Below, in pieces: positions 6,897-63,582 of a stretch of DNA of 64,000 bases (position 1 is its first letter; every line of letters starts with the position of its first letter). Position numbers and translations under genes: made by a program. Source of the DNA: a virus. The notes under the pieces were generated by a model that was not told the DNA's origin, ran no database searches, and saw only the letters and a program-made list of their open reading frames with translations. The stretch covers positions 29,876 to 93,875 of the IMG/VR virus record IMGVR_UViG_3300010883_000009; one strand, written 5' to 3'.

Positions 6897-7020
6897 TATT
6901 TCTCTCCTGTAAATTCAAAATCAATTGCCATGATCATGTCTTTATTTCTGACTAACTGGTTCGTTTTACGGTAAATTCTCATGGATAATATTTCCACGAA
7001 CCTAGATGAAAACCCTTGTA

Positions 7021-7584
7021 TTAGACCATATACTCTACGGCTAACCCTTCGTCTACCAAAAGTCGATTCACATTTACGTTGTCGAAGTATACAGTTGCTA
7101 GATAGCGACCATATTTGCCTTTCTTATCTTGATTGGTCTCAATGGTTATCTCTTTGTCCAAGATAAGCCCTTTAAGGCGGTCTCTAGCGACTCTTCCTTC
7201 AATAAGGGTTGGTCTTCTTAACTCAGGGGTGTTAATGCCATACAATCGAAATTTGGCGACAACAGTGGTATTAAAACCTAGATTAACTATGGATCGAGTA
7301 ATGGTATCGCCGTCATAGATTCTTTCTACTTGACATTTGTACTTACAAACGCGATGCCAAGGTTCGGTAACGACAGTTGCCTGCCAGAATCTACTGTTGG
7401 GATCTTTGGGGTGTTTTGTATCAAAGACATAGGTTTCGCCAAGATCTAGTTTTGTCTTTTTGCTAACAAGTAAATCTTTTTCAGCAAAGACGCCAAACCC
7501 TAATGCGAAACGAACTGGAACTGCACCATTAGGCAATCTGCTTCCAGCGATATACCCTTCGTATCTGTACAGTTTGGGACTCAT
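7021..7584 (-). CDS. thermonuclease (staphylococcal nuclease family)
   Basis: YDGDTI, RLYGINTPE, KGKYGRYLATVY, NVNRLLVDEGLA motifs. Confidence 0.9.
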   Translation of the reverse strand: MSPKLYRYEGYIAGSRLPNGAVPVRFALGFGVFAEKDLLVSKKTKLDLGETYVFDTKHPKDPNSRFWQATVVTEPWHRVCKYKCQVERIYDGDTITRSIVNLGFNTTVVAKFRLYGINTPELRRPTLIEGRVARDRLKGLILDKEITIETNQDKKGKYGRYLATVYFDNVNVNRLLVDEGLAVEYMV

Positions 7585-7748
7585 AATTCATCTTCGTTGA
7601 TGAATTCACAATGTTCCTTGCAAGAAGGGCATATGCCCGTGTCTGAATAGTTAGGTCCATCTTCAGAAACCATACGATCTTTGGTTCCGCAACAATTAGA
7701 TATAAGGATTTCTTCTACGAAAGCTATAGCTAATCTGTATATTTTCAT
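7581..7748 (-). CDS. 55-aa Cys-rich protein with MKIYRLA leader (absent from ORF track)
   Basis: Manual translation MKIYRLAIAFVEEILISNCCGTKDRMVSEDGPNYSDTGICPSCKEHCEFINEDEL; ATGA overlap with the thermonuclease start. Confidence 0.75.
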   Translation of the reverse strand: MKIYRLAIAFVEEILISNCCGTKDRMVSEDGPNYSDTGICPSCKEHCEFINEDEL

Positions 7749-7749
7749 C

Positions 7750-7998
7750 TTATCGACTTACGTTCTGGAAATATTTTGTTACAGTATCAATTGGAGCATG
7801 ACCTATTTGAATAAAAAACTTGTGAAATGCTGATGGATCTTGAGCAATTGCCTGAACAATACCTTGACTCCTGCCTAGTTGGTCGTAGCTTTCTACTGTT
7901 TCGGTCATAGATTGCCCAAAACAAAAATTGTAAAACCTAACCATTTCCGACTGTCTTTCATTAAAAGGCTCTTCCTGAGCTAATCTGTATATTTTCAT
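7750..7998 (-). CDS. small protein with MKIYRLAQ leader
   Basis: First 21 nt identical to those of the 7748 gene; promoter motif directly upstream. Confidence 0.75.
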   Translation of the reverse strand: MKIYRLAQEEPFNERQSEMVRFYNFCFGQSMTETVESYDQLGRSQGIVQAIAQDPSAFHKFFIQIGHAPIDTVTKYFQNVSR

Positions 7999-8021
7999 AC
8001 TGTATTATACTTCTTCGGCAC

Positions 8022-8057
8022 AAAAAAGAACCCTCTAGGAAAAAACCTAGAGGGTTC
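8022..8057 (-). terminator. intrinsic terminator after major capsid gene
   Basis: GAACCCTCTAGG/CCTAGAGGGTTC stem followed by T6 on the minus strand. Confidence 0.85.
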
Positions 8058-8085: not shown

Positions 8086-8952
8086 TTAGCTGCCAGCCGT
8101 AACCGTTACCTTCGCCGTAGCGTAGGAGTTGATTACTACGATACCGACTTCCTCGTAGATAACCCATCCGAGACGAAGCTTCTTTGGATCGTCCGCTGGG
8201 AGAACGGTGATATCCTGACGAATCGGGAATGCACCAACGTACTCTGCGGGAGCGAGCAAGAAGACTGTATCAGTAGGGCACTTCGAAGAAACATGGATGT
8301 CAGCCGTGAACAAGTGTCCGAAGAGACCTGTAGTCAAGACTTCCTTCTGTGTCGCTTCATCGTAAACGGTCTTACCGAAGTTACGGATGTCTGCGTAACG
8401 CAAAGCGTGGCAAACGATCTTTCCTACAGTAAGGTCGTGCTGTTCGATAGTTGCGAATGCTTGGTTCAATGCGTTAAGCGTCAAAGCACCACCAGTCGAA
8501 ACGACGGTATGTGCAGCGTCAACTGCGGCATTGATAGCGTTGAAGATGTTTAAGTCCTCTTCCTTCTGGATCGCTTCCTTCGCCTTGATCTGTGCTCTGT
8601 CTACAATGTAGAAACGACGAGCCTTGACTTCGGAAAGTCTGATCGTGGGGTTAGTTGCAATTTCGAACGTAGGTACGAGGATTTCCTCACCTTCTGTGAT
8701 CATGTCAGGTACAGCGCCACGACGTGAAATGACGTGTGCGGTAGCTCTAACATCCTTCTCATAACGGGCATACGCGCCCTGAGGAAGTTCATCAACCATA
8801 AGCAATTTTCGGCCTACGGCTTGGTATTCCAGCGCTCGACGGATAGGCTCCACCATTGCCTGTGCTAACGCAACTCGACCTTGGGGGGTATCCAACGCTT
8901 GAGCGATGAGACTTTCTCTCTCAGCATTTACTGCTCTTTTGTCAATAGCCAT
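8086..8952 (-). CDS. major capsid protein, HK97 fold
   Basis: LAQAMVEPIRRALEYQAVGRKLLMVDELPQG and PTFEIATNP...KEAIQKEED resemble large-phage (Bxz1-like) capsid proteins; position after protease/scaffold; strong RBS and terminator. Confidence 0.88.
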   Translation of the reverse strand: MAIDKRAVNAERESLIAQALDTPQGRVALAQAMVEPIRRALEYQAVGRKLLMVDELPQGAYARYEKDVRATAHVISRRGAVPDMITEGEEILVPTFEIATNPTIRLSEVKARRFYIVDRAQIKAKEAIQKEEDLNIFNAINAAVDAAHTVVSTGGALTLNALNQAFATIEQHDLTVGKIVCHALRYADIRNFGKTVYDEATQKEVLTTGLFGHLFTADIHVSSKCPTDTVFLLAPAEYVGAFPIRQDITVLPADDPKKLRLGWVIYEEVGIVVINSYATAKVTVTAGS

Positions 8953-9015: not shown

Positions 9016-9528
9016 TTATATGGTTAGTTTAACTTCGATATAGGTGTTACTGTTTTCTCCACTAAGAGCCTGATCGCCGTTGGAGTCAACGCCCGGTACG
9101 CCCGAAGGATATGTACCAGCAGCTTTGATCAAACGACCAACTTCGCCCGAAGCGAATGAGTTTGTGGGGGACAATACACCGCTTACAGCGTAAAGAAGGT
9201 CACCGATAGTAGAAGAGGATACGTTTGCAAGGAACTGATCCGTTGCAAATTCACCACCACTATGGTAAACAGTCATTTTGCCAGAAGCTTTAGTTTCATC
9301 GAAATAATCCGATGCCCTATTTTGCCAGTCACCGGAAACTCCGGGCATGGCTGATGCGCTAGTTGATTTGGTGTCGCCTGCGATTCCGTAAGGAGCTGCA
9401 TTCGTCGCACTTTGCAGTACAACTTCGCCAGATGAGTTCAAAGAAACAATCTGTCCTTCCTTAATAGTTTCGCCTGAAGCAACAGCCCTCTCAGCAGCAA
9501 CAACGTGATATCTTTCTATAAGAGCCAT
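9016..9528 (-). CDS. probable capsid decoration/cement protein
   Basis: 170-aa Gly/Ala/Ser-rich protein between scaffold and capsid gene; IKEGQIVSL...ASGKMTVY...FATDQF. Confidence 0.65.
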   Translation of the reverse strand: MALIERYHVVAAERAVASGETIKEGQIVSLNSSGEVVLQSATNAAPYGIAGDTKSTSASAMPGVSGDWQNRASDYFDETKASGKMTVYHSGGEFATDQFLANVSSSTIGDLLYAVSGVLSPTNSFASGEVGRLIKAAGTYPSGVPGVDSNGDQALSGENSNTYIEVKLTI

Positions 9529-9685
9529 TTTATTTTCTCCTTTTAATTTGAGTTACTTCGCTTGAATTATTGGCGGATTGTTCTTCTTTTTATTAAAATC
9601 AGTTAATGCTGAATGAGTAAGTCGTTTTTTCTTCGTTTTAGTGCTATCGATTTGATTATGTGATTATGCCAATTTACGTTAAACC

Positions 9686-9713
9686 TATTCTATAACTTTA
9701 GGTGAAATCCCTT
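9686..9713 (-). promoter_or_regulatory. AGG-N19-GAA promoter for decoration/capsid operon
   Basis: AAGGGATTT...AGAATA; one of 20 matching sites upstream of genes. Confidence 0.75.
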
Positions 9714-9788: not shown

Positions 9789-12700
9789 TTACTTCTCTCC
9801 GTAGATCGTCAAATCCTTATCGAACTTGGTATTGCCAATCGTGAAAGAATTTTCCAACTGACTTTGCAGATCATTTACTCCAGCAGTTACCATAGGAGTA
9901 GACTCCTGCACGATTGCAGGGATGCTGTAACCAGCTTCAACTGTCTGTCCTGACTGAGCTTCTGCTGTCTTAATAGTCGTCTCAGGGAACATACGATTCG
10001 CCATAACCTGAATCTGATCCGTCTCAAAGCCCATAAGAGCTTGTACGACAGTATCAAATGTATCCTTGTCCTTGGCGACTCGTTGATTCGCTACGAGCCA
10101 TGCAGCCGTCTGAACCGCTTCGTTCTTGCGAGCTTGGGCGATTCTGTCAAGCTGTACCTGACGCTTCTGCTGTACCTGCTTTAGGATCTCGTCGTTAGTT
10201 CCGGGCATTCCCTTACCAGTATTGGCATGATCATATCCTTGCTGAACTTCCTTTTCGTGACCCATGTAAGCGTCTGATACAGGAACGTCTGGTCCATCTG
10301 CCTTGGGGTTGATGTTATCTGCGCCTTCGTTACCCATCTCAGCATTTGCTCGGGGTACATCGGGCTTAGCAGCAGGAACGTCGATGTTATCCGGTCCTTC
10401 GTTGCGGATTGTAGCGTCAGAGCGTGGAACGCCTGCTTCTACATCGCCTTCAACCGTATCAACTTCCTTCAACTTCTTTGCCTGCTTCTCTTGAGAAGCC
10501 TGCTTGATTTCATCATCACCTTCAGCAATGACGGTTCCCTTGATCTCGTTATTAATGGCAGGCATTCCCTTACCAGTATTGGCATGATCATATCCTTGCT
10601 GAACTTCCTTTTCGTGACCCATGTAGGAACTGTCTACGGGAGTCTCGGGGAGACCAGCCTTAGGATTGATGTTGTCTGCGCCTTCATTGCCAAGTTCGGC
10701 ATTTGCGCGAGGAACATCGGGTTGCGCCATTGAGACATCAATGTTATCTGCGCTTTCATTTCTGATAGTCGCGTCAGATCTTGGGACTCCAGCTTCTACA
10801 TTGCCTTCGATGTCCTTTACCTGTTTTGGGGTACTTGCCATCTTCAAAACCTCCTCATTAGTATTTCTAACTCTTTTGGAATTCATAGTCAAAGCTAGTC
10901 GCATTTCTTCCTCAGGGTCAATTTCTTCCTCTGAAGCTTCAACTTGAACTTCAACTGATGCTACAATGTTCTCTTTTTCAGAAGCAGACTCTTTTTTGTC
11001 ATCGTCTTTGCCTTTGCCTTTGCATTCGCAAGGATCACATTCGCATTTCTTGCAGCAATCCCCATCATCCTTGTCGCACTTGCAACTAGCTTTTGGGTTT
11101 TTGCAGTCATCGCAGAAGAAACCTTTAGCTTCAACAACGATTTCGTCCTCAACTTCTGCTTCAACTTCGATATAATCCGCAGGAGGAAGTTCGGTTCCGA
11201 TATCCTCTTCGTCAGCCTGAGCTAACTTCTGATGCTCTGCTTCGACCTCAGCAGATTTTTCTTCTGCCAAAATACGATCCAAAGTAGCTAAGTCGCCAGC
11301 CGTGATTCCATCTTCTCGACCCTCTTCGGCGTCATCTGAGAATGCCTGAGCGTAAACGTTCTGCATCCATTCAGAAGCGAAACGCTTCTTGATGCAGTTA
11401 CAGATAGCCTCAGCTTCCTTCAAAGTATGCCCTTCGCTGTCGGTCTGATCCTCAATGCACTCGTCCCATGGGTCTTTCTCCATCGAAATAGAGGCAAGCT
11501 TGTTCAAGTGACGAATCTTTCGGAATCCAAGCTTCTGAAGCTGTCCGCATACGCATTCAGCTAAAAGCTTACCTTTGCAAGGACCAAACGATGCAACCGT
11601 GTCGCCGCCATATCTGCGAGCTAAACGTTCCATGCAAGCGCTTACGGGGAATTCGTCTGCATTTGCAGCAGCCGTCTTCAACATTTGAGCAACTCTGACC
11701 TCAGAAGCAAACTTAAGAGCCTCTTCCTTGCAGCTTTCGCAATTCTCAACGTCAGGGAAGAGATCCCATTGTACTCTGAGATAACCGACCTCTGGGTTGC
11801 TTGCGCTTACCATGAAGTCCTTCTCTACAGGAGTTCCGCATGCTGTGCAAGAGAACTCAGTATGACCATCTTCTTCTGCCGATGCTTCGCAGTTATCCTT
11901 GCCGCAAGCTGGGCAAACATGTCCGTGCTCTTCCTGATTCTTGGCGATACGAACAATCGCATCCTTGCCAAGGCTAGTCTGAGCCGCTACGGGCAATGCA
12001 GGAACCTCAGGAACTTCAGGAGCTTCAGGAGTATCAACTCCCTCTTCGCCTACGCTCTTAGTAGGTTTGATGATCTTGAATTCAACTTCCTTCTTGATAA
12101 GGGCTTCATATTCGGCTGTGCAAGCGTTGCATGTGCCATGAATATCTCCGCCTTCATTCGTAACGTCTACGTCGGTACTTCCGCACTCAGGACATACTGT
12201 CCAAGGCATCTGACGTTCGCCAGTCGTAGGAATGTCATCTTCTGCGCTTGTGTCTTCCGTTGTCAAAGCCTGTACGGGGTCTCCCTCCATAGGTGCTGGA
12301 CCCGGCAAACCCTGTTCAGGTGCTGCGCCGCCTGCGCCGGGCATTCCGCCGCCCATAGGGGACTGTGCTTCTCGCGTCATCTTGTCCTTGGACGATGCCC
12401 AAGAGTTTTCAAGACCTTCGCCTGCCATATCGCCTTCAGGGACGGTTTCGGCAGGAGCATCAAGACCTTCAAGACCTTCGCCAATAGGAATCTCGGTTGT
12501 TCCTTCGCCCGTATCAATGTTGACCTCATTCTCTTCGGTGTCCGTTTGGACTGCGATTTGAATGGTGTCGCCGCTGATTGTTACGTTCGTAATGGAACCT
12601 AAACGAAGATTCTGAGAAGCGAGTGCGCCTTTCGTGAAAGCAACAACTGATGGCTTATTGTCGCCCAACTGTCCCGGCTCAACGCCCAACTCTTTAAAAC

Positions 12701-15383
12701 TGGTTTCAATTACCGTGTCAGCCTCTCCAATCTCTTCCTTGTTGAGGATTTCCTGTTCTTGATCCTTAACGGAAGCGAGAAGATTCTCACGTTCTGAGTC
12801 TCTTTCTGCTCTCGAAGACTCAACATCAACCTGAGGCTTCAACGCAGCGCGAAGTTCATCCTTACGGCTGACCTTAGCGGTTGTCTCTTCCTTGGCTGCT
12901 TCGAGCTTCTCTTCGACTAAAGAAGAAACGCTATCGATACCTTCCTGTCCTTCAGAAATGATATCTACGGCATCCATGAGAAGGTCAGGGTTGATTGTTT
13001 CGTCAGACGCATGAGCGCGAAGACTGTCTACGACAACCTCTGCAATCTCTTTAGTTCCAACGCTAGCAACCCTAAGATTCTTATTCTGCCAATAGGCAAC
13101 TCTCTTTGCGTAATCGATATCTTCTCTTGATTTTGAATCTTCGAAAAGCGATACGCCCAAATTGTATCTACTTTCAAGCGAGTCAACCAAGGATGCTGCT
13201 ACAGAACATGCTTCCTCGGGAGTACAACCCGTCTTGATAGCGGACGAGGCCATAACATCAACTACCGTCTGCATATGCTCGGACGCGCTCTTGAACCTAG
13301 CTGCATCCCTTCCGGCGGCTCTCGCCCAAGGTGCTGCTACGTTACGAAGTTGATCCTCGGTAATTGTATTTGGCTCGTTATCAACGCGCTTGCCCTCATC
13401 AGGCAATTGCTGTTGTGTAATAGAGTGCTGGTCGCCTTCGATCCTATTATCGCCTTCCATTTGTCCTTCTTGGACTTGATCCGGAGCGTCACCCTCTCTT
13501 GGGTGCTGCTTCAATTCAGGATCATCCAATTGACCTTCGGTGATCTCATTCTTTTCGCCCGAGCGCTTCTCTTCGAGTTGCTCTTGGGTAATAGAATGTT
13601 TTTCATCCTTCTGTCTGGCGTGATAAAGATCGGAACGCTCAAGCTGACCCTCTTGAACCTGATCTGGAGTCGTTGCTCCAGCTTCTTTGCTGATATCAGT
13701 CATCTTTTTTACTCCTTCTTTTGTAGTATTGAGATTATTCGCAAATGTATCCAATAACTTAATTGCTGCGTCTTTAGGGGAATCGATAATTTCTCCACGT
13801 TCTTGTTCTGTCAGGTCTTCATACGTCCAAACCTTTTTCGCAGAAGAGTCTTTATCTTCCGCGACGATGATGAACGAGTCATCACGTTTATTGACAGACA
13901 AGCGATGATCATTGTTTTGTATTGATGGTACTTTCTTTATATACTCGAAAAAGGATTGTTTTTCCTCCCACGAATTTGATAGAACTTCAATAGCCTTCTT
14001 TTTTTGTGCTTGCTTCTCAGCAATTGTTCGTCTTGCTCCCATCTCTGTTTCTCCTGTTTTGTTGATTCTTTCACAAATATTCGATGCATTTCTTACAATT
14101 GCTTTTCCGTCCGCTACGCGCTGTTCAAAGGGAACGTCCTTAATTGCGCAGCTTATATCTGAGACTCTCTGAATTGAACGACTGTCCTGAACATCCGATG
14201 TTCTCGGCTTAACAGGAGCAGTAATAGGTAAATTTGGGGAAGATGTTGCTGGTGAAGCAGGAGATCCCGAAATACTACCCACTCCCGCCGTAGATTCCGC
14301 AGCAGGCATAGCCGATGGCATTCCTCCGGGCGCAGGCGGCATACCTTCAGGCATAGGTGGTTCTGCTCCAACTGGTCCAGCCCCGCCTTCTTCTAGATTT
14401 CCAACAGTTCCCGGTACTTCATCGCCCATGTTCCCGTATCCTGCTCCTACCAATTCTTCCATCCAAGTCTGAAGATCAGACATAATCTGCACCAAATCGC
14501 TAGAAAACTCCATTTCGACTTGTTGACGATTTTGAATAAGGTTGATAGCAATTTGTTCCAATATCTCTAGACATTGTTCAATTTGATCAATTTCTTCTTG
14601 GCTGGCTTCCTTCTCAATAGCCGCAGTACGAACCATTCGAAGCTCGTTCTCTATGGACGCAACCTTAGCTAAGAAGTTTTCGTTAGGAATAATGCCCTCA
14701 ATATGACAATTCGGGCAGGCAGGATCAACTACAGCGCTCAACTCAATAAACTTGAGTCCGTAGTTGAATTCAAATACATCTTGATCCTTAAAAGACTTTT
14801 CTTCACCAGTTTTAACGTCTCTGGCTCGACCTGTAAATGTTCTTCCCTTGCGGTTACGAATATGCGTACAATAATCTTCGGTACGCTCAGCTTGGTTATT
14901 GCAAATATTACAAACGCTGTATTCAACCGAACAACCCATGCTGACGCCGGTTACATACTCTTCCTCGATTGAACGACAAATATGCGGATATGCATCTCTA
15001 TCAATAAAACAGATAGTGTAGATTGCCTGCTCTTCAGGGACAGCTTCAGCAAAAATAACCTTCCCGCGAGCATTCTCTACGTTCTGATTATCATGGTTGG
15101 TGAAAAAAGGAACGCCTTCAAAGCTCTTGTATGCGGAAAGAAGTTCGTCCCATGAAAAATAATCGCCGTTAGTATTAGGGCAATCGGCTTCAATAGCTTT
15201 AGCACGGAAGAACAAAGCATTGGGATGCTTCTTTATCTCGGCTTCAACGATTTTCGCCTTATCAGAACCGGGTTCAACAATAACCCTACCTGATGCTGTA
15301 CGCATCATTCGGTCACCGTCTTCATTCGCACCCACTAATGGGTTAATGTCTGTAAAGTTAAAAGATGCTTCTTTTACTATCAT
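9789..15383 (-). CDS. prohead maturation protease fused to scaffold (1864 aa)
   Basis: N-terminal NTNGDYF, FTNHDN, RGKVI, GVSMGC, FIELSAVVDPA motifs of HK97/herpes-type prohead proteases with a CxxC insert; long acidic and Cys-rich C-terminal region; upstream of the capsid genes. Confidence 0.82.
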   Translation of the reverse strand: MIVKEASFNFTDINPLVGANEDGDRMMRTASGRVIVEPGSDKAKIVEAEIKKHPNALFFRAKAIEADCPNTNGDYFSWDELLSAYKSFEGVPFFTNHDNQNVENARGKVIFAEAVPEEQAIYTICFIDRDAYPHICRSIEEEYVTGVSMGCSVEYSVCNICNNQAERTEDYCTHIRNRKGRTFTGRARDVKTGEEKSFKDQDVFEFNYGLKFIELSAVVDPACPNCHIEGIIPNENFLAKVASIENELRMVRTAAIEKEASQEEIDQIEQCLEILEQIAINLIQNRQQVEMEFSSDLVQIMSDLQTWMEELVGAGYGNMGDEVPGTVGNLEEGGAGPVGAEPPMPEGMPPAPGGMPSAMPAAESTAGVGSISGSPASPATSSPNLPITAPVKPRTSDVQDSRSIQRVSDISCAIKDVPFEQRVADGKAIVRNASNICERINKTGETEMGARRTIAEKQAQKKKAIEVLSNSWEEKQSFFEYIKKVPSIQNNDHRLSVNKRDDSFIIVAEDKDSSAKKVWTYEDLTEQERGEIIDSPKDAAIKLLDTFANNLNTTKEGVKKMTDISKEAGATTPDQVQEGQLERSDLYHARQKDEKHSITQEQLEEKRSGEKNEITEGQLDDPELKQHPREGDAPDQVQEGQMEGDNRIEGDQHSITQQQLPDEGKRVDNEPNTITEDQLRNVAAPWARAAGRDAARFKSASEHMQTVVDVMASSAIKTGCTPEEACSVAASLVDSLESRYNLGVSLFEDSKSREDIDYAKRVAYWQNKNLRVASVGTKEIAEVVVDSLRAHASDETINPDLLMDAVDIISEGQEGIDSVSSLVEEKLEAAKEETTAKVSRKDELRAALKPQVDVESSRAERDSERENLLASVKDQEQEILNKEEIGEADTVIETSFKELGVEPGQLGDNKPSVVAFTKGALASQNLRLGSITNVTISGDTIQIAVQTDTEENEVNIDTGEGTTEIPIGEGLEGLDAPAETVPEGDMAGEGLENSWASSKDKMTREAQSPMGGGMPGAGGAAPEQGLPGPAPMEGDPVQALTTEDTSAEDDIPTTGERQMPWTVCPECGSTDVDVTNEGGDIHGTCNACTAEYEALIKKEVEFKIIKPTKSVGEEGVDTPEAPEVPEVPALPVAAQTSLGKDAIVRIAKNQEEHGHVCPACGKDNCEASAEEDGHTEFSCTACGTPVEKDFMVSASNPEVGYLRVQWDLFPDVENCESCKEEALKFASEVRVAQMLKTAAANADEFPVSACMERLARRYGGDTVASFGPCKGKLLAECVCGQLQKLGFRKIRHLNKLASISMEKDPWDECIEDQTDSEGHTLKEAEAICNCIKKRFASEWMQNVYAQAFSDDAEEGREDGITAGDLATLDRILAEEKSAEVEAEHQKLAQADEEDIGTELPPADYIEVEAEVEDEIVVEAKGFFCDDCKNPKASCKCDKDDGDCCKKCECDPCECKGKGKDDDKKESASEKENIVASVEVQVEASEEEIDPEEEMRLALTMNSKRVRNTNEEVLKMASTPKQVKDIEGNVEAGVPRSDATIRNESADNIDVSMAQPDVPRANAELGNEGADNINPKAGLPETPVDSSYMGHEKEVQQGYDHANTGKGMPAINNEIKGTVIAEGDDEIKQASQEKQAKKLKEVDTVEGDVEAGVPRSDATIRNEGPDNIDVPAAKPDVPRANAEMGNEGADNINPKADGPDVPVSDAYMGHEKEVQQGYDHANTGKGMPGTNDEILKQVQQKRQVQLDRIAQARKNEAVQTAAWLVANQRVAKDKDTFDTVVQALMGFETDQIQVMANRMFPETTIKTAEAQSGQTVEAGYSIPAIVQESTPMVTAGVNDLQSQLENSFTIGNTKFDKDLTIYGEK
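10204..10625. repeat. internal duplication in scaffold, period 357 nt (119 aa), with a 65-nt identical core
   Basis: 10204-10268 equals 10561-10625 (YMGHEKEVQQGYDHANTGKGMP); VEAGVPRSDATIRNE also repeated. Confidence 0.9.
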
Positions 15384-17480: not shown

Positions 17481-17525
17481 AACGCCGCCTCTCTTACAGT
17501 TTTTCTGTAGAGAACGCGGCGTTTC
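17478..17525 (-). terminator. hairpin after portal gene overlapping the next promoter
   Basis: AAACGCCGC...GCGGCGTTT with inner TACAG/CTGTA stem. Confidence 0.55.
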
Positions 17526-17543
17526 CTCTTTTATTTAGTTTTT

Positions 17544-19823
17544 CTATGTGGTATTTGGGGCTGTCAGGCTTGGTTTAGCCTGAAGATCTTGGGCGTTCTG
17601 CTCAAGCCACATGCGTTTACGCATGATTTCTTGGAGAACTGTGCGAACAATTTGTGGACCTGAACGTTCAATTTCGGTATCAGTAAAACGAAGAATTGTC
17701 CATCCTTGTTGCTGTAGTTTCATGTCCCTTGCGTTATCTCTATCGACTTGTTCTCGGGAACCATGAAAGACTTCTCCATCAGCTTCGATACCGATTTTAA
17801 GTTCAGGAATACCAAAGTCAAGAGAATATTCTTGACCAGCAGCGTTAACTCTATATTGTGGATAAATAGTTTCTTTTAACAGACCGTCTTGCTGCGCCTG
17901 CATTAATTTAGGAATTAAATCTCTTTCAGCTTTAGTAAACGCTATACGCCCTTTCTCATCTCTAAAATACCCTTGCTCATCTTTTCCCATGACTCCCTGA
18001 GTTTCTTGTTCCCTGAATATCTTCTCTTGTTCCGACTGTATGCGTTCTCTCGTTCTCTTTTTTAGAACTTTTCCCCCAAACTGGGTGGGATCTGCTACCT
18101 CAGCCGTAATGCTTGTGCTTTTTGGCATTGGTCCTCCGACTCCCCCTCCTACGGGAGAAGGCATTCCTCCTCCTCCTACTGGAGTTCCGGGTCCACCCAT
18201 CTCTCCGGGCGCTCCAATCGGTGGCTCTCCTCCTAATCCGCCGCCTCCGTCTAACGGCGGCATAGCTGAACCGCCTGCTCCGAATCCGCCGCCGCCTGCT
18301 CCTCCCGGAGCCGAAGGTCCAAATCCTTGTCCAATTGCCATGAACTGCAAGGCATCGTAACGCTTTCTCTCGATTTCCTGATCAGGATCAAGATCGAACG
18401 CCTCAAGTACCGTTTGAGCACTTAAGAGACCCTTATCGTAAAGCTGAATAATAAATGTTCTGTATTGCTGCTGATCGCGCAGATGCATCGAAGCCCATTT
18501 GATCTTGGGAATAATGTACTCATCTTCACCCGTATCAGGATTCTTGTCAACGAACCCTTGTCGTTTCGCTTCTGGAAGATAAATGTTTTTCTCGATCCAT
18601 CTAGCGACTTCACTACGGAAAGTATTGAGACGCTGAATCATTGCCTCGATACCGACAGCCGCCGAACTGAAGTTTGGTCCCTCTCCGTTCAACAGCGCAT
18701 TGTTGATCATCATACCGTCGAGAATTTCTTGATTAATGAACTCAAACTCATTAGAAAGAGTAAGAACTCTTCCTGCTGCGCCAACAAAGTCTAATTCGAA
18801 AGCATGGTGAGTAACAATAGTAAGGTTAGGATCGTTAGCTGTTTGAGATAACTGAGACTGTACGTCTGCAATATCAGCGGGACCAGCAGGACGCTCATCG
18901 CTACCGACCTTGACGATCTTGATTGGGACAATTAAACGCTCTGCAACTATCCACTGAGCAACCATCAGTTTCGTTTTGTAGGAAAGAATAGGAAACAAAC
19001 GACGAACCATTCCTATACCAAACTTCTGATATCCACATTCTCCGTACTTTAAATGCGACACATTGCGATTGTCAAGGCGAATAGGTTGTCCTGTAGCGAT
19101 AAGGGCAACAACTTCAGGAGACAATTTCTCATAACCCGGAATCTTTCTTTGTACCATGTTAATCAACTCTTCGTCAGGACGAAGCGCAATCATTGGGTCA
19201 GGGTTAATGGAAGTCGTGTGAACCTCTACATAATCAGGATTTAGGAGAACAACACGGCGTACTGTCCCGCCCTCATGTTCGCATATCTCGTCTCCGACCT
19301 TACCTGCTCCGAAACAATGAGGACAATCGATTTCAATAAAAGGGAAGCAATCTCCCAAAAGGTGAACTTCATGACTAATTAAACGACACCATTTAGGGAG
19401 TTCAATCTTGTCTTTAAGTTTATCGAAATGAATCTTAACGTCTCGATTACGACATTCATGCTCGAAGTCGCTCATGGGAAAATCGCTGTAGAAGTCAACA
19501 GCAGCAGCTACTTTGGGTTCGTTCTCGTAAAAGAAACGCGCCCACTGATACTGTTCTAGACGCTTAGAAGGTATCTGCCAGTTGATCGGGGTGTGAACTG
19601 GTGAGAAGAATTGAGGCTGACCATATACGATACCGGCTGAGGTCGCAGCAGTACGCGACATTCCCGTTCCCCATCCGCCAGTTTCTACTGCGGTAGTTGG
19701 GGCATAGTTATGTTGGGGAATCCTTTTGTAGTCAGGATGGGGCGCTACAATTTTCTTCCCGACTTTAGCGGGATCTCGATTTTTAAGTGCTTGAAAAGCT
19801 TGTTGTAGTCCTGAATCTGCCAT
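17544..19823 (-). CDS. portal protein with C-terminal DUF559-like endonuclease domain
   Basis: FFYENEPKVAAAVD, LLGDCF, LLNPDYV, HLKY...GIGMVRR portal motifs; Gly/Pro linker; YSLDFGIPELKIGIEADGEVFH...RDMKLQQQGWTILRF. Confidence 0.82.
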   Translation of the reverse strand: MADSGLQQAFQALKNRDPAKVGKKIVAPHPDYKRIPQHNYAPTTAVETGGWGTGMSRTAATSAGIVYGQPQFFSPVHTPINWQIPSKRLEQYQWARFFYENEPKVAAAVDFYSDFPMSDFEHECRNRDVKIHFDKLKDKIELPKWCRLISHEVHLLGDCFPFIEIDCPHCFGAGKVGDEICEHEGGTVRRVVLLNPDYVEVHTTSINPDPMIALRPDEELINMVQRKIPGYEKLSPEVVALIATGQPIRLDNRNVSHLKYGECGYQKFGIGMVRRLFPILSYKTKLMVAQWIVAERLIVPIKIVKVGSDERPAGPADIADVQSQLSQTANDPNLTIVTHHAFELDFVGAAGRVLTLSNEFEFINQEILDGMMINNALLNGEGPNFSSAAVGIEAMIQRLNTFRSEVARWIEKNIYLPEAKRQGFVDKNPDTGEDEYIIPKIKWASMHLRDQQQYRTFIIQLYDKGLLSAQTVLEAFDLDPDQEIERKRYDALQFMAIGQGFGPSAPGGAGGGGFGAGGSAMPPLDGGGGLGGEPPIGAPGEMGGPGTPVGGGGMPSPVGGGVGGPMPKSTSITAEVADPTQFGGKVLKKRTRERIQSEQEKIFREQETQGVMGKDEQGYFRDEKGRIAFTKAERDLIPKLMQAQQDGLLKETIYPQYRVNAAGQEYSLDFGIPELKIGIEADGEVFHGSREQVDRDNARDMKLQQQGWTILRFTDTEIERSGPQIVRTVLQEIMRKRMWLEQNAQDLQAKPSLTAPNTT

Positions 19824-19877
19824 ACTTACTCCAAAATGTCACTCTTCATTATACAAATAAAGAGCGTTTTTGTGCGA

Positions 19878-22245: not shown

Positions 22246-22303
22246 AAATCAGTCCTTTTTAGTGGTTACATGGAAATTCACGTACCTATTTTTCCTAATG
22301 TCT

Positions 22304-22330
22304 ATTTCATACATCCTGCGGTAATTCCTT
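22304..22330 (-). promoter_or_regulatory. AGG-N18-GAA promoter
   Basis: AAGGAATT...GAAATA directly after a terminator. Confidence 0.75.
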
Positions 22331-26540: not shown

Positions 26541-26609
26541 TTTATGTCTCCTTTTGTGATTAAACTTCAGTCTTTTCTTTTAATTCTTTATTATGTTCTC
26601 GATTCCTTC

Positions 26610-26837: not shown

Positions 26838-26844
26838 GGTGTCT

Positions 26845-26871
26845 TATTCACGGTTTATTGGCGAATTCCTT
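26845..26871 (-). promoter_or_regulatory. AGG-N18-GAA promoter
   Basis: AAGGAATT...GAATA 12 nt before ATG. Confidence 0.75.
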
Positions 26872-32047: not shown

Positions 32048-32084
32048 ATTCATCTATTTCTTGATTTGCTCTCCAAATCCCTAT

Positions 32085-34045: not shown

Positions 34046-34085
34046 AACAAATACAATTTCAATGTATTCGCTGTAAATTCCTTTC

Positions 34086-36424: not shown

Positions 36425-36495
36425 AATATCTCCTTGTGGTCTAAAAACTGTTCTCTTGATTTTTTCTTCATCAAACAGCTAAAACCCTTTCTTTT

Positions 36496-44898: not shown

Positions 44899-45099
44899 TC
44901 AAAATCGCCATTTGATCTTAATTCCCAAGACCGTTTGCTTCTTAACCTTATCTTCCCACTTCTCTATCTCACTCAAAGAAGCATCTTCCTCATGCCTATA
45001 TCGCTCATCGTATTTACTCCATCTTATGTGGGGTCGAACGTGCTCTTTAATCCAAGGCAAGATCTTAGATTCTTTTTTATTGAGAGGTTTCTTTGCCAT
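44899..45099 (-). CDS. small hypothetical protein
   Basis: MAKKPLNKKES start 16 nt after promoter motif. Confidence 0.55.
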   Translation of the reverse strand: MAKKPLNKKESKILPWIKEHVRPHIRWSKYDERYRHEEDASLSEIEKWEDKVKKQTVLGIKIKWRF

Positions 45100-45137
45100 A
45101 TAGTAAGAATTATTCTTCAAAAGGCGGTCAGATTCCT
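45085..45137. promoter_or_regulatory. overlapping divergent AGG-N19-GAA promoter pair
   Basis: plus 45085-45111, minus 45111-45137. Confidence 0.65.
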
Positions 45138-46960: not shown

Positions 46961-46969
46961 GCGGTTGGT

Positions 46970-47254: not shown

Positions 47255-47281
47255 AGTCTGCTCCTCAAGACTTGGCGCATT

Positions 47282-47652
47282 TTAAATTCTTTCTAGCCAA
47301 CTCAGCGACACAGTTACGTTTCCATCTGAACCGCCGGTTTCTTTTGTGAATGGAAAAACAATAATTTCAGATGGTTGAATTGATAAGTTTAAATGAGATA
47401 TGTCAGCAGATAATGAACTGTCTCTTGTTACAGCAAAGTCAATTACTTATTCTACGCCCTGTATAGTACCTGTTGTACTGCCAGCAAGCATTGCCGAATT
47501 GATCGAATTGATCGAATTAACCGACGCCAATGTTACTCCTCAATGAATCCTGCCATTGAAGCTGTTGATATTGTTTTGGCAGCGCCGCTAAATCCTGTAT
47601 CCGTCTTTGCAATAATATTCATATGGAACGTTGGGTTACTAAAAGTGGGAGG
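47282..47652 (-). pseudogene. decayed fragment of a beta-rich phage structural-like gene
   Basis: PTFSNPTFHMNIIAK...ASMAGFIEE, frameshift, GVTLAS...GVE, in-frame TAA at 47447-47449, then VIDF...VTVSLSWLERI. Confidence 0.45.
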
Positions 47653-47724
47653 GGTTTCTCCCTCTTTCTCGAAGTAGTTTATATAAACGATTGATAACTG
47701 AGAGAAAGGGGAGGGGTTAACTAC

Positions 47725-48371: not shown

Positions 48372-48378
48372 ACTATCT

Positions 48379-48417
48379 TTTTCTAGTAAAAGGTCTTAAC
48401 CCCCTTTACTGCGAAAT
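48379..48417. promoter_or_regulatory. overlapping divergent AGG-N19-GAA promoter pair
   Basis: minus 48379-48405, plus 48391-48417. Confidence 0.7.
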
Positions 48418-48426
48418 ATATTTATC

Positions 48427-49184: not shown

Positions 49185-49185
49185 C

Positions 49186-59029: not shown

Positions 59030-59181
59030 TCATCTTCTAATTTATACGCAGCTTTATTATACATCTCCTGCATGGATTATTCCTTTACTAAGTCCGTTTC
59101 TTGCAGATCACCTATCACCAACTATGCAATACTATTACAACCACATAAGGCTGCATTCCTCTTTACAACCTCAGAAAGTTG

Positions 59182-59957: not shown

Positions 59958-59993
59958 CAATCTAGTCCTTACCTTGCACGTATTATACAAGAA

Positions 59994-62900
59994 CTAGAAC
60001 TGAATAATCACATTGTCGTTGAATGCACTCGCCCATACAGTACGACGATTATCGGAAGCAGGAACAGGATAAGGATCAGGAGGAAACACTTTTATAGTAC
60101 CCTTGATCGGAGTTTGTTCCTTCTCAAGATCTTTGAAATTGTATAAGTCCTGATACTTCTGATACTCAGGAGATTGAATGAATTGCTGAATCTTAGAACC
60201 ATGCGTCGGCAAATCCATTTGATCTAGAGTATCCCACAACGAATATGGTATCCCCGCATTATCCAACGCCTGTTGAGCCTCTTTCTTAGATTCCTGCAAT
60301 GCTATCGACTTCCGATATTCTACTAAATGCTCTTGAATTAAAGGATGTTGCTCATACTCAGGAGGAATCTTCGTCAACGCTTCTGGATTTTGATAATTAT
60401 GATCGATGTATTGTATCCATTCATTCAACTTCAAACGTTGACGAAAACTTTCATCATCAAGAACAAATTGAGACGGAAAATTGTAGTTAGAATAATATCC
60501 ACCCAAATTTTCAGCATCTGTTATTTTTTTACGAGTAACATATTCCATCCATTGATCAAGTATGATCTTTTGCATCTTTGGCTCTTTAATGATTTCTTCC
60601 ATCATGCCAGACGGAACACTGATCTGTATAATACCCTTATCAACAATCAATTTCTTCCATATCTTTCTGGTATAATCTCTTAAGTTGTTCTTTGCTAACT
60701 CGTCATCCCCAAGTATATCAAAATAGTGATCCCAACGATCAGGATTCCCCGCGATCTGCTCTTTCCAATGCTCCATGCGTTTCTTGAGGTATTGAGGATC
60801 GTTCTTTATTTGTTCAACCAACTCAGGCAAAGCAGAATCAATGAATGAGGAACTATTTCCTTCGTAAAGTTGTTGCTCAACATAGTCCCTGATTGCCTTG
60901 ACGACTTTTGGATTGCCATAAATCTCATTGTTCTTAAATGGGGTCTCATTCTTAAATTCGGGGCGTCTGATAGCCTGACGAATCCAATATTCTTTCCACT
61001 TCTCAACTATCTCAGGATCTTTTAGAAACTCATCAATAACCTTTTCAGGAAGACGCGAAAAATATTCAGGATAGTTTTCAGCAAACTGTCGAGCGCCTTC
61101 CCAATAAGCCTTTAACAGCTCTTCGTCTTTGATTTCGTCAAACTCAATCTCATTAGGAGAAGTAGCAACGAGATCCCTCATATGTTCCAAATATGATTGA
61201 TGCACTTCAGGATCAGCTTTTATCTCATCCTTAAACTCAGTAGGAATGCTTTTGTAATACTTTGGCTGTCGAACAACATGTTTCTTCCACCATTGCTTAG
61301 CAGCCGCCTGAACTTCAGGATCATTCCTTACTATTGCCATAGGACAAATAGTATAATGCGCTCCATGCTTAGGATTAACAAGAATCTTTTTCCACATGTC
61401 AGCGTCTTTGTTTAACTCTTTGTACGCTGTAGGTATACGATCCATACGATTAGGATTCTCAATCAAATTGTCCTTCCAAGCCTGCATACCAAATTCTTTG
61501 AAGTCAGGAAGTACAAGCAACTCCGATGGGACATAAGCCATCCCCTCAATCCCGTGCTCCTGTACACGCGCCTTCCATTTGTCAACAACTATCCCCATTA
61601 GTTCTTTGTCTTTCATCAATGACGCAGGAATGTTATTTCCATAAGAACCATAAACATCATCAATGGCATATTGCTCCATCAGTGAAATGATTTTCTGTTT
61701 CGCCGTTTCAGCATAAATAGGATCTTCTTTCAAATGATCCGGCAAGTTGTCCAATCTGTTTGGAGAACGCTCAACAAGCTCTATCCATGCCGGTCCCAAT
61801 TTCTCCAAAACCCTCGGATCATTTCTCAGCTTCTCATTCAAATCTCCCCAACCTTCGACGTTACCTTCAATGGCTATAATAGATGACTGAATCGCTTTTT
61901 CAAAAATTTCAGGATCGTTAGCGAACGCCTCAGGAATCTGTTCAAAATAACCCGAACTGTGCGTTACTTGTTCACCCCAATACGCTTTCGCCTTAGCTTT
62001 TAACTCAGGCATCTCTTTAATATCATCATACGGACACTTCTCCCAATTATCAGGACTGGTATCTAAAAGATTCTCCCAACCAGTATGAGAAGCTTTTAGC
62101 ATCTCAGCATCTTGTTGAACCCATTCAGGAGCCTTCGAGAAATACGTAGGCGTCTTCTCAATAGTCTTGATCCATCCATTACGTATCGCAGCTTGAGTTT
62201 TCGGCAAATCCTGCACATGTTCCGGCAAATCAATGGCCATTACGTTGCTAGGATCAATTTGCCTCGCCCAATGACTATCAGCAGCATCCAATATCTGAGG
62301 CGACTTGCGAACACTATCATACGGACATCTATCCCAATGCTTAGGATATCCCAATAAAATTTCTGTCCATACCTTCTCGGAAAGATCAGCGCCCTTCTTC
62401 TGAATAAAACGCTCTAACTTCTCTTCGTTCTTATAACGATGGTTCGCCCTGTCCGATTCACTAGAGTTCTCATTGTCAATGATATCTATTTGATCATACG
62501 ACTTAGGAGAAAGGAAAACAGCTTGCATCGGTTCAGAACTATGAATATATCCTTTGCCACTCTTGTCAGCAAAACCTTCATACTCCAAAACCCCATTCAA
62601 AATACGATTGAAAGCCAATCCAAAAGGATTTAATTTGCCCTCAGATTTGTCAGGCATCAAATCACTCAAATCATACGCATTTAACATCTCACGAACAATA
62701 GTCTCTCGATCAGCCCCCGGCTCTTTTAACATAGCTACCAAATAACTTAAATGCCGAACCACATTCCACATCGACATGACAGGATTTAACTCTTTGGCTT
62801 TTTCCAATGCCTTCTTCTCAATACCCTCAAATTCTTCATCTGTCAAAACCGTAGGCGTAAAATATCCCCTCAGTTTCTTCTTGTCCTCATCATAACTCGC

Positions 62901-63380
62901 AGAATCATATTCATTGTACATGTCATTGATGAACTTAGCATCTTCCCTTACACGAATAATAGCAATATAAGGTTTCTCACCCTGATAAGGAACATCCGAT
63001 AAACTGCCCGAATTTTCAATCCTATCCCATATCTCTTTCAATGGATAGGTATATATACCCAATGGCGTATTGTAATGACTCTTTGGATTGATGCCAACCT
63101 TAGGTTCTTTACGAGGCTTTTTGTTCTTGCGAATAGATGGAGTCTCTTCTAATGTCCCGATGTAAGATATGTAAACATTAGGATCATCTTTGTATTGCTT
63201 CAAAATATCAAACGAACTCGGCTTGGGCTGACGCTGATTAGCAGGTCGAGCAGCTAAAATAACCATCTCTTGAGGAGATTCTAAATGCTCCACAGAAAAA
63301 TCAGATTCCCATTCAGATACAAAATCATTCCATATACACCTAGCATATGCTAATTTTAAATTGTCATCGAATGTATTCAT
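59994..63380 (-). CDS. 1128-aa protein with globular N-terminal domain and many DUF4116-like helical repeats
   Basis: GINPKSHYNTPLGIYTYP and GYIHSSEPMQAVFL motifs; about 33-aa W...P...IP...DPE repeats. Confidence 0.65.
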   Translation of the reverse strand: MNTFDDNLKLAYARCIWNDFVSEWESDFSVEHLESPQEMVILAARPANQRQPKPSSFDILKQYKDDPNVYISYIGTLEETPSIRKNKKPRKEPKVGINPKSHYNTPLGIYTYPLKEIWDRIENSGSLSDVPYQGEKPYIAIIRVREDAKFINDMYNEYDSASYDEDKKKLRGYFTPTVLTDEEFEGIEKKALEKAKELNPVMSMWNVVRHLSYLVAMLKEPGADRETIVREMLNAYDLSDLMPDKSEGKLNPFGLAFNRILNGVLEYEGFADKSGKGYIHSSEPMQAVFLSPKSYDQIDIIDNENSSESDRANHRYKNEEKLERFIQKKGADLSEKVWTEILLGYPKHWDRCPYDSVRKSPQILDAADSHWARQIDPSNVMAIDLPEHVQDLPKTQAAIRNGWIKTIEKTPTYFSKAPEWVQQDAEMLKASHTGWENLLDTSPDNWEKCPYDDIKEMPELKAKAKAYWGEQVTHSSGYFEQIPEAFANDPEIFEKAIQSSIIAIEGNVEGWGDLNEKLRNDPRVLEKLGPAWIELVERSPNRLDNLPDHLKEDPIYAETAKQKIISLMEQYAIDDVYGSYGNNIPASLMKDKELMGIVVDKWKARVQEHGIEGMAYVPSELLVLPDFKEFGMQAWKDNLIENPNRMDRIPTAYKELNKDADMWKKILVNPKHGAHYTICPMAIVRNDPEVQAAAKQWWKKHVVRQPKYYKSIPTEFKDEIKADPEVHQSYLEHMRDLVATSPNEIEFDEIKDEELLKAYWEGARQFAENYPEYFSRLPEKVIDEFLKDPEIVEKWKEYWIRQAIRRPEFKNETPFKNNEIYGNPKVVKAIRDYVEQQLYEGNSSSFIDSALPELVEQIKNDPQYLKKRMEHWKEQIAGNPDRWDHYFDILGDDELAKNNLRDYTRKIWKKLIVDKGIIQISVPSGMMEEIIKEPKMQKIILDQWMEYVTRKKITDAENLGGYYSNYNFPSQFVLDDESFRQRLKLNEWIQYIDHNYQNPEALTKIPPEYEQHPLIQEHLVEYRKSIALQESKKEAQQALDNAGIPYSLWDTLDQMDLPTHGSKIQQFIQSPEYQKYQDLYNFKDLEKEQTPIKGTIKVFPPDPYPVPASDNRRTVWASAFNDNVIIQF

Positions 63381-63582
63381 GTAATCGCTGCGCAGCCGAA
63401 CTCTAATTTATCTTATATCCTCGTCACATCGAATTTTTTCTCATAAATTCCCCTACATATTTCCCCATCTGTAAACAAATATCCTCCAACATCAATAAGA
63501 GGATTTAGAGATTTTACTAAGCAAGTGTTCTTTAGTCTTATTCGGATAAGACCCAAAGCGAACACCTAACGGAGAATTAAAA

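What the first reader, a model, noticed from the sequence alone, without database searches (positions are those of the whole stretch)
6990..63485. Twenty copies of an AGG-N18/19-GAA promoter resembling sigmaH-type promoters
Seen upstream of genes at 6990, 8009, 9686, 17501, 22304, 26582, 26845, 32056, 34056, 36462, 45111, 48379, 50288, 53201 and 63459 (minus strand) and 45085, 47650, 48391, 50301 and 53334 (plus strand), with an ATG-N19-GAA variant at 3413-3439. Spacing is always 18 or 19. Known: the Bacillus sigmaH consensus is AGGAWWW-N11/12-RNNGAAT, the same geometry. Inference: a late regulon read by an alternative sigma factor not encoded in this window; it covers the capsid operon and most tagged cargo genes.
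Basis: partly seen in the sequence, partly recalled or inferred. Interest (0 to 1): 0.7.

Follow-up and report, generated by a model that had tools for sequence, protein, structure and literature searches.

The report
SigmaH-type promoter set in a megaphage
A fragment of a giant, uncultured relative of Bacillus phage G carries about 20 to 25 copies of a two-box promoter, AAGGRWTT, 11-12 bases, GAAATA, that matches the bacterial sigma-H consensus. Complete relatives of the phage encode a sigma-H-like factor that could read it, so this is probably a phage-run gene switch of a familiar kind.

Summary
The bare pattern AGG-N18/19-GAA is at chance level (97 matches against 82±9.5 expected). The longer motif behind it is real: A-AGG-R-W-T-T, 11-12 nt, GAA(A/T)TA.

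- **Enrichment.** An unbiased dyad count ranks the motif top among non-terminator signals, 18-31x enriched in intergenic DNA. A weight matrix finds 20 non-coding and 2 coding hits at a score where random sequence gives 0.4.
All 20 exist. Thirteen are strong, four middling and three weak; 17501 lies inside a terminator hairpin.
- **Orientation.** Every non-coding site faces an ORF within 160 nt. Eight or nine sit 6-10 nt before an ATG that has no Shine-Dalgarno sequence, which implies leaderless mRNAs.
- **Conservation.** At the capsid-operon site, nine relatives keep the boxes while the spacer varies.
- **Geometry.** It equals the published sigma-H consensus.
- **The sigma factor.** The 93.9-kb fragment, about 20% of a genome of roughly 470 kb, encodes no sigma factor. 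A collinear 476-kb relative has no RNA polymerase genes but four sigma factors. One of them, and its orthologues in 8 of 9 near-complete relatives, matches SigH models best.

Best reading: a phage sigma-H-like factor directs host RNA polymerase to these promoters. "Late" timing is plausible but unproven. The same motif was also noted by this scan in the neighbouring window of the same genome. This is a new member of a known kind, of moderate interest.

The parts
6989..7016 (-). Strong site. GAAATA lies 6 nt before the ATG of a 28-aa tag-only ORF (MRIYRK...), with no SD.
   Evidence: LOO score 18.9; sequence
8008..8034 (-). Middling site. AGG lies in the 3' arm of a terminator hairpin and the -10 overlaps GTATAAT. 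It precedes the MKIYRLAQ gene 7750-7998.
   Evidence: Score 11.8; upstream sequence
9685..9712 (-). Strong site. Promoter of the capsid operon: decoration/cement-like gene 9016-9528 and major capsid gene 8086-8952. The leader is 156 nt.
   Evidence: LOO 17.8; Pfam Phage_capsid and cement matches, both just below cut-off, and phage G gp26/gp27 annotation; boxes invariant and spacer variable in 9 relatives
17500..17527 (-). Probably a false positive. The pattern lies inside a GC-rich terminator hairpin.
   Evidence: Score 3.7; hairpin visible
22303..22329 (-). Strong site upstream of the 331-aa gene 21250-22245 (MNILRVADEQ). It follows a terminator.
   Evidence: LOO 19.8
26581..26607 (-). Strong site, 40 nt before the ATG of gene 25755-26540, which has an AAGGAG SD.
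   Evidence: LOO 13.9
26844..26870 (-). Strong site. GAATAA lies 6 nt before the ATG of 26610-26837, with no SD.
   Evidence: LOO 17.7
32055..32082 (-). Strong site after a terminator. It lies 7 nt before the second ATG of the 813-aa nucleotidyltransferase-domain gene.
   Evidence: LOO 17.2; PolyA_pol domain
34055..34082 (-). Strong site, 9 nt before the ATG of the trypsin-like protease gene 32981-34045.
   Evidence: LOO 20.4; Trypsin_2 match 3.9e-21
36461..36488 (-). Strong site, 36 nt before the ATG (AAGGAG SD) of the 389-aa gene downstream of the large terminase.
   Evidence: LOO 22.5; terminase
45085..45137 (.). Divergent overlapping pair: 45085-45112 (+) and 45110-45137 (-). Both are middling.
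   Evidence: Scores 11.8 and 13.3
47650..47676 (+). Strong by score, but the -35 box lies in a terminator-like hairpin (47647-47662).
   Evidence: LOO 19.1; hairpin
48378..48418 (.). Divergent back-to-back pair: 48378-48405 (-) and 48391-48418 (+). Each is 6-8 nt before an ATG with no SD.
   Evidence: LOO 17.4 and 17.0
50287..50328 (.). Divergent pair: 50301-50328 (+) is strong, 50287-50314 (-) has a weak -35. Each is 6-7 nt before an ATG (MKSWYKTAQ and MKIYRIAD).
   Evidence: Scores 21.6 and 5.5
53200..53227 (-). Weak by matrix. GAATAG lies 6 nt before the ATG of 53008-53193.
   Evidence: Score 4.6
53334..53361 (+). Strong site, 7 nt before the ATG of 53369-54295 (MKSWYRLAQ).
   Evidence: LOO 13.7
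63458..63485 (-). Middling site upstream of the 1128-aa gene 59994-63380.
   Evidence: Score 8.6
3405..3439 (-). It has no AGG and its -10 overlaps GATATAAT, so its class is unresolved.

Best explanation
These are promoters of the sigma-H type: a -35 box A-AGG-R-W-T-T and a -10 box GAA(A/T)TA, with AGG and GAA 18-19 nt apart.

The phage has no RNA polymerase of its own. A phage-encoded sigma-H-like factor, whose gene lies in the roughly 80% of the genome missing from this fragment, would bind the host core enzyme and direct it to these sites.

Transcription would start about 6-8 nt after the -10 box. At roughly half the sites in this genome that point is the A of the ATG, giving leaderless mRNAs. 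Elsewhere it gives a 30-60 nt leader with an AAGGAG ribosome site.

The set includes the capsid operon, a protease gene, head-tail and tail module genes, and many genes whose products begin MKIYR or MKSWY.

A second promoter class, TGTATAAT (an extended -10 of the sigma-A type), serves the portal, nucleotide-metabolism and other genes.

**Shown:** the motif, its intergenic and oriented placement, its conservation, the match to the sigma-H consensus, the SigH-like gene in relatives, and the absence of polymerase genes.
**Inferred:** which sigma reads the sites, the transcription start points, and the timing.
For: - **Motif is non-random and intergenic.**
- **Orientation.** All 20 non-coding sites face an ORF within 160 nt. 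Eight or nine lie 6-10 nt before an ATG-ORF, against 4.2% for random non-coding positions. True TATAAT boxes in the same genome sit at the same 6-nt distance from SD-less ATGs.
- **Independent recovery in a relative.** The collinear 476-kb relative shares only 64-76% DNA identity. De novo dyads there recover AAGG-N19-GAAT at 18x. Twenty-two of 23 sites lie within 66 nt of an ORF, and they cluster in the structural region 394-457 kb.
- **Footprint at the capsid operon.** In 10 sequences, A-AGG and AGAA are invariant, the spacer is unrelated in sequence, and its length is fixed.
- **Related loci.** Across 80 related loci, hits lie mostly on the gene strand: roughly 90 of 104 at score >=15 (my tally of the rows).
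- **Consensus.** The geometry is identical to the published sigma-H consensus (also AGGAATT-N14-CGAAT in PMC6849360).
- **SigH-like factor in the relative.** Its ORF at 163344-164186 has SigH models as its top five hits (2e-25 to 2e-17; the next family is at 3e-8). Its only PDB match is 3mzy, 'sigma-H factor'.
- **Orthologues.** They are present in 8 of 9 relatives that are >=90% complete, and all match SigH best. More than 400 homologues occur in metagenomes; among the 120 listed, the named ones carry JGI labels such as 'sporulation-specific sigma factor' or 'sigma-H factor'.
- **No polymerase genes.** No beta, beta-prime or T7-type RNA polymerase is found in the relative (the T7-type search had no positive control).
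- **Not sigma-70 sites.** Full sigma-70-type matches are at chance in window 44000-54500, and none lies at the seven sites inside that stretch.
Against: - There is no transcript data, so start sites and sigma dependence are untested.
- The sigma gene is not in this fragment. Its presence in this exact phage is extrapolated from relatives.
- The SigH-like proteins score well below NCBIfam's SigH cut-offs (about 65-136 against 208-414 bits).
- The three bases before GAA do not follow the RRM of the sigma-H consensus.
- Motif use is uneven across the clade. It is abundant here and clear in the 476-kb relative. It is inconclusive in a 255-kb relative that has the sigma gene. It is absent from Bacillus phage G, which has only a weak SigH-like match.
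- Some listed sites overlap terminator hairpins.
Confidence: 0.6

Rival explanations
1. The sites are sigma-H-type promoters read by the host's own sigma-H. That would tie expression of these phage genes to the host's post-exponential, competence or sporulation state. The phage SigH-like protein would then serve another purpose, for example manipulating the host.
For: - The motif matches the cellular sigma-H consensus closely.
- The nearest cultured relative infects a Bacillus.
- SD sequences and extended -10 promoters are typical of Firmicutes.
- Some phage sporulation-like sigma factors are known to act on host genes (bioRxiv 10.1101/2021.11.12.468384).
Against: - The host is unknown.
- The SigH-like gene is a conserved single-copy core gene across the clade, which fits an essential phage role.
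- Making capsid synthesis depend on a growth-phase-limited host sigma would be risky for a lytic phage.
- The boxes are kept in a relative with 57% GC (L012).
Confidence: 0.17
2. The sites are promoters read by another factor: one of the three RpoD/RpoS-like phage sigma factors, or host sigma-A helped by a phage activator that binds the AAGG box.
For: The relative encodes three more sigma factors. The -35 box is degenerate in the relative, where the -10 TGAAT dominates.
Against: - GAAATA lacks the final T and the first T that sigma-A-type -10 recognition needs.
- RpoD-like factors would be expected to read the TTGACA/TATAAT class, which also exists in these genomes.
- The two-box geometry with fixed spacing is what a single sigma reads.
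Confidence: 0.13
3. The sites are not promoters. They would be a binding site for a repressor or structural protein, a remnant of cassette joints between mobile 'tagged' genes, or chance.
For: Several sites adjoin genes that share N-terminal tag DNA. Three sites overlap hairpins.
Against: - The motif also precedes untagged genes, including the capsid operon, the protease gene and the 389-aa gene.
- The spacer differs between copies, so the copies are not repeats.
- Strict orientation and distance to starts, and enrichment far beyond chance, all point to a promoter.
Confidence: 0.05

Closest known systems
Sigma-H (Spo0H/SigH) promoters of Bacillus and Listeria
   Same: The boxes and geometry are the same. 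Listeria -35 signals such as AAAGGATTT, AAAGGAATT and GAAGGACTT would score as members here, and AGG-N18/19-GAA is identical (PMC4754846; PMC6849360).
   Different: - Here the sites lie in a phage genome and serve structural and cargo genes.
- The -10 box extends to GAA-A-T-A, and the RRM prefix is not kept.
- Many sites sit 6-8 nt before an ATG (leaderless).
- The likely reader is a divergent phage protein that scores below the SigH cut-offs.
Bacillus phage SPO1 gp28 and gp33/34 sigma cascade
   Same: Phage-encoded sigma factors redirect host core polymerase to phage-specific middle and late promoters. gp28 groups with sigD, sigH and sigI in a published tree. From my own knowledge, not checked here, gp28 promoters have an AGGAGA -35 box.
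   Different: SPO1 -10 boxes differ (TTTNTTT and GATATT, from memory; a literature search did not retrieve them). No homology to gp28 was tested here.
Bacillus phage G (Donellivirus gee), nearest cultured relative
   Same: - The major capsid protein is 56% identical, and the capsid decoration and capsid genes are in the same order.
- It has a ~500-kb genome and several sigma factors, including one annotated as sporulation-specific (PMC12484599).
   Different: - Phage G shows no enrichment of this motif.
- Its intergenic DNA is dominated by TTACA-N14-TGATATAAT.
- Its SigH-like match is weak, at 33 bits.

Membership tests
Sigma-H-type promoter (RMAGGRWWW-N11-12-RRMGAAW) | -35 box with an invariant AGG, A-rich before it and R-W-W-W after it | tested here: met
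   In 20 training sites: AGG 20/20, A before it 20/20, R next 18/20, then W 15/20 and T 17/20 twice
Sigma-H-type promoter (RMAGGRWWW-N11-12-RRMGAAW) | Spacer of 11-12 nt, that is AGG-N18/19-GAA | tested here: met
   The dyad peak is at N19. With 17-20 allowed, the non-coding top hits use only 18 or 19. All 20 reader sites are 18 or 19.
Sigma-H-type promoter (RMAGGRWWW-N11-12-RRMGAAW) | -10 box RRMGAAW | tested here: inconclusive
   GAA 20/20 and W next 17/20. The three bases before GAA are mixed and do not follow RRM.
Sigma-H-type promoter (RMAGGRWWW-N11-12-RRMGAAW) | Transcription depends on a sigma-H holoenzyme and starts just downstream of the -10 box | not testable with these tools
   Only indirect evidence: the box sits 6-10 nt before SD-less ATGs at 8-9 of 20 sites, against 4.2% by chance
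SigH family sigma factor (protein of relatives, proposed reader) | Best match is to SigH models over their full length | tested here: met
   The top 4-5 families are SigH models for the G001 protein and 9 orthologues, E 1e-15 to 1e-39, covering about 150-200 of ~200 model positions. The only PDB hit is 3mzy, a sigma-H factor.
SigH family sigma factor (protein of relatives, proposed reader) | Reaches NCBIfam's curated SigH cut-off (true orthologue) | tested here: not met
   65-136 bits against cut-offs of 208-414. It is SigH-like, not SigH.
SigH family sigma factor (protein of relatives, proposed reader) | Encoded by this phage | tested here: inconclusive
   None is found in the 93.9-kb fragment, but the fragment is about 20% of the genome. 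The gene is present in the collinear 476-kb relative and in 8 of 9 near-complete relatives.
Sigma-A / sigma-70 promoter (TTGACA-N17-TATAAT) | -10 hexamer with T at the first and last positions, and a TTGACA-like -35 | tested here: not met
   The boxes are GAAATA and AAGGAWTT. In window 44000-54500 the sigma-70 scan is at chance (32 against 26.8±5.6) and hits none of the seven sites in that stretch. A separate TGTATAAT class exists.
Phage late-gene regulon | Expressed late in infection | not testable with these tools
   For: the capsid operon, and clustering in the relative's structural module. Against: the portal uses TGTATAAT, and a CCA-adding enzyme gene has the motif.

The most novel reading that the evidence does not exclude
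A globally distributed clade of G-like megaphages carries its own sigma-H-family factor as a core gene and uses it, rather than a phage-specific sigma type, to drive structural and cargo genes. In this lineage many of those genes are transcribed as leaderless mRNAs starting at the A of the ATG. This would be the first phage regulon with sigma-H specificity. It would also open the possibility of cross-talk with the host's own sigma-H programme (stationary phase, competence, sporulation entry).
Probability: 0.5. Interest if true: 0.55.

Novelty: new member of a known kind. Interest (0 to 1): 0.42.

Why it matters
**Regulatory map.** Transcription in megaphages of about 500 kb is almost uncharted. 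This gives a concrete two-class map for an uncultured clade: TGTATAAT sites of the sigma-A type, and AAGGAWTT…GAAATA sites of the sigma-H type.

**A candidate reader.** The work names a protein that could read the second class.

**Annotation.** The promoter positions fix many true start codons, including leaderless ones. That improves annotation of the 'tagged' gene families.

**A possible link to host state.** If the phage factor shares specificity with host sigma-H, infection could switch on host stationary-phase or competence genes, or host state could influence phage late genes.

The principle itself, a phage sigma with cognate promoters, is textbook, so this is an extension rather than a surprise.

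Tried and rejected
- **Bare pattern count** is at chance, so it was dropped as evidence.
- **Iterated matrix** drifted into coding matches. It was rebuilt from non-coding hits only, with leave-one-out scoring.
- **Near-identical DNA search** in the phage collection found no match.
- **Related loci by the 389-aa protein** found none.
- **Sigma, beta, beta-prime and T7-type RNA polymerase searches** in the fragment found nothing.
- **Phage G as a culturable test bed** was rejected, because the motif is not enriched there.
- **The 255-kb relative G009** has too little intergenic DNA to decide.
- **Genome-wide consensus counts without gene context** are uninformative in the larger genomes, so a remote pattern scan was not run.
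- **The idea that the shared 5' codons are conserved as RNA for leaderless initiation** is unlikely. Synonymous positions vary (ATA/ATC/ATT, TAC/TAT, AGA/AGG/CGT) while the peptide is kept, and tagged genes also occur inside operons.
- **Rfam and tRNA scans** of the window found nothing.
- **Literature.** No paper was found describing sigma-H-type promoters in phage G-like phages. The SPO1 consensus was not retrieved.

Full report
**What the DNA is.** The window is bases 29876-93875 of a 93,875-bp linear virus contig that CheckV rates about 20% complete.
- It holds a portal (17544-19823), a large terminase (36496-38394), a small HK97-type capsid protein (8086-8952) behind a decoration/cement-like gene (9016-9528), and a ribonucleotide reductase. 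Many ORFs have no known relatives.
- The capsid protein has hundreds of close relatives on virus contigs of up to 548 kb.
- The nearest cultured relative is Bacillus phage G (56% identity, same gene order).
- A 476-kb, 98%-complete relative (G001) is collinear with this fragment at 64-76% DNA identity. The window therefore belongs to an uncultured G-like megaphage of roughly 470 kb.

- All 20 listed sites carry AGG-N18/19-GAA, with minus-strand coordinates about 2 nt off.
- The six-base pattern itself is uninformative: 97 matches in the window against 82±9.5 expected, and other spacings are as common.
An unbiased count of all 4-mer dyads in intergenic against coding DNA puts AAGG-N19-GAAA (11 against 8, 18x) and AAGG-N21-AATA (8 against 3, 31x) at the top, after terminator-type AAAA/TTTT pairs.
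- The 20 best non-coding sites give A-AGG-R-W-T-T in the first box and GAA-(A/T)-T-A in the second.
- At score >=16 the matrix finds 20 non-coding and 2 coding hits in a genome that is 94% coding. Second-order Markov sequence gives 0.4. Seventeen of 20 sites keep a score >=16.6 when left out of the matrix.
Three are weak (17501, 50288, 53201). Site 17501 lies in a terminator hairpin and is probably false.
- Eight further strong sites lie in the 30 kb before the window. They match those noted independently for the neighbouring window.

**Do the sites behave as promoters?**
- Every non-coding site faces an ORF within 160 nt.
- Eight or nine of 20 end 6-10 nt before an ATG that opens a long ORF and has no Shine-Dalgarno sequence, against 4.2% for random non-coding positions. 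For several of these, the start codon is fixed by a peptide shared with paralogues (MKIYR..., MKSWY...).
- Genuine TGTATAAT boxes in the same genome sit at the same 6-nt distance from other SD-less ATGs, for example at 52276 and 40502. So the GAAATA box occupies the position of a -10 element for transcripts that begin at the start codon.
- The other sites lie 20-156 nt upstream, several of them ahead of an AAGGAG ribosome site.
- In window 44000-54500, full sigma-70-type matches are at chance and none coincides with the seven sites that lie there. Those genes would otherwise have no promoter.

**Conservation.**
- At the capsid operon, nine relatives carry the motif at the same place, 760-846 nt before the capsid gene. 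Their capsid proteins are 80-98% identical and their DNA ranges from 34 to 57% GC.
- In the alignment the invariant columns are A-AGG and AGAA. TTT after AGGR and the A of GAATA are nearly invariant. The spacers are unrelated in sequence but fixed in length.
- In G001, de novo dyad discovery recovers AAGG-N19-GAAT and AGGA-N18-GAAT at 18x, beside a CTTGACA...GCTATAAT class. Twenty-two of 23 sites lie within 66 nt of an ORF, mostly at 27-46 nt. About half cluster in the structural region that is syntenic with this fragment.
- Across 80 related loci, hits lie mostly on the gene strand: roughly 90 of 104 at score >=15, by my tally of the rows.
- The motif is not universal. It is not enriched in phage G, which instead has about 100 copies of TTACA-N14-TGATATAAT. 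It is inconclusive in a 255-kb relative.

**What reads the sites?**
- The published sigma-H consensus, (A/G)(A/C)AGG(A/G)WWW-N11-12-(A/G)(A/G)(A/C)GAAW, gives exactly AGG-N18/19-GAA. Listeria -35 signals such as AAAGGAATT are indistinguishable from those here (PMC4754846; PMC6849360).
- The fragment has no sigma domain.
- G001 has no beta, beta-prime or T7-type polymerase, so it must use host core enzyme. The T7-type search had no positive control.
- G001 encodes four sigma factors. Three look like RpoD/RpoS/RpoH. The fourth, at 163344-164186, has SigH models as its top five hits (2e-25 to 2e-17), with the next family at 3e-8. Its only match among solved structures is a sigma-H factor, 3mzy.
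- Orthologues of that fourth factor occur once each in 8 of 9 relatives that are at least 90% complete, including two with terminal repeats, and all match SigH best.
- More than 400 homologues exist in metagenomes. Among the 120 listed, the named ones carry JGI labels such as 'sporulation-specific sigma factor' or 'sigma-H factor'.
- All score well below NCBIfam's SigH cut-offs, so the protein is SigH-like rather than SigH.

**Most likely mechanism (confidence 0.6).** The phage SigH-like factor recruits host core polymerase to these promoters. Transcription starts 6-8 nt after the -10 box and often produces leaderless mRNAs in this lineage.
- The regulon includes the capsid operon, a trypsin-like protease, head-tail and tail module genes, a CCA-adding enzyme gene, and most genes with MKIYR or MKSWY N-termini.
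- A second class, TGTATAAT(A/G) with no clear -35 box, occurs about 18 times next to genes. It serves the portal, a 1020-aa ATPase and the reductase region, among others.
- 'Late' timing is plausible but not shown.

**Rivals.**
- Host sigma-H reads the sites (0.17).
- Another phage sigma, or sigma-A with an activator, reads them (0.13).
- They are not promoters (0.05).

**Novelty.** Phage sigma factors with cognate promoters are classic. I found no description of sigma-H-type promoters or of this regulon in G-like megaphages. I therefore file it as a new member of a known kind, of moderate interest.

**Limits.**
- There are no transcript data.
- The host is unknown.
- The sigma gene is inferred from relatives.

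Noticed in passing
window 3484-3492, 19839-19847, 25663-25671, 40494-40502, 46330-46338, 52268-52276, 57711-57719, 59047-59055 and others: A second promoter-like class. The exact 9-mer TGTATAAT(A/G), with no clear -35 box, occurs about 18 times just upstream of genes, including the portal, a 1020-aa ATPase and the gene at 39195-40502. Some copies lie 6 nt before an SD-less ATG.
   Followed up: partly
window 9668-9672 (-), and the same column in L001-L009: A TTGGC element about 17 nt downstream of the -10 box of the capsid-operon promoter is nearly invariant in 9 of 10 aligned relatives. It lies at the start of a ~150-nt leader and its role is unknown.
   Followed up: no
window 48378-48418, 50287-50328, 45085-45137: Three divergent promoter pairs in which the two -35 boxes overlap on opposite strands (AAAGG-N9-CCTTT). 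The two polymerases would compete or be co-regulated.
   Followed up: no
window 6897-6983 (-): A 28-aa ORF consisting of little more than the MRIYRK tag. It sits directly behind a strong leaderless-type promoter, and its stop overlaps the ATG of the next gene (6348-6896).
   Followed up: no
window-wide, e.g. 7750-7998, 7581-7748, 3967-6345, 49186-49497, 50020-50280, 50336-51178, 53369-54295: Many unrelated proteins begin MKIYRLA, MRIYRLA or MKSWY(K/R)xAQ. Synonymous codon positions vary, so the conservation is at the peptide level. It recalls the capsid-targeting sequences of T4 internal proteins (from memory).
   Followed up: partly
window 9789-15383 (-): A 1864-aa protein whose residues 49-222 match a head maturation protease family (phrog_18299, 2e-15). 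The rest has no match.
   Followed up: no
window 8086-8952 (-) against G001: The capsid protein is 93% identical between genomes whose alignable DNA is only 64-76% identical. That is unusually strong conservation of a 288-aa capsid protein across a clade with 31-58% GC.
   Followed up: no
L139-L163 (Bacillus phage G, NC_023719.1): Intergenic DNA of phage G is dominated by about 100 copies of TTACA-N14-TGATATAAT followed about 10 nt later by AAGGAG. This is a very uniform sigma-A-type promoter and ribosome-site cassette.
   Followed up: partly
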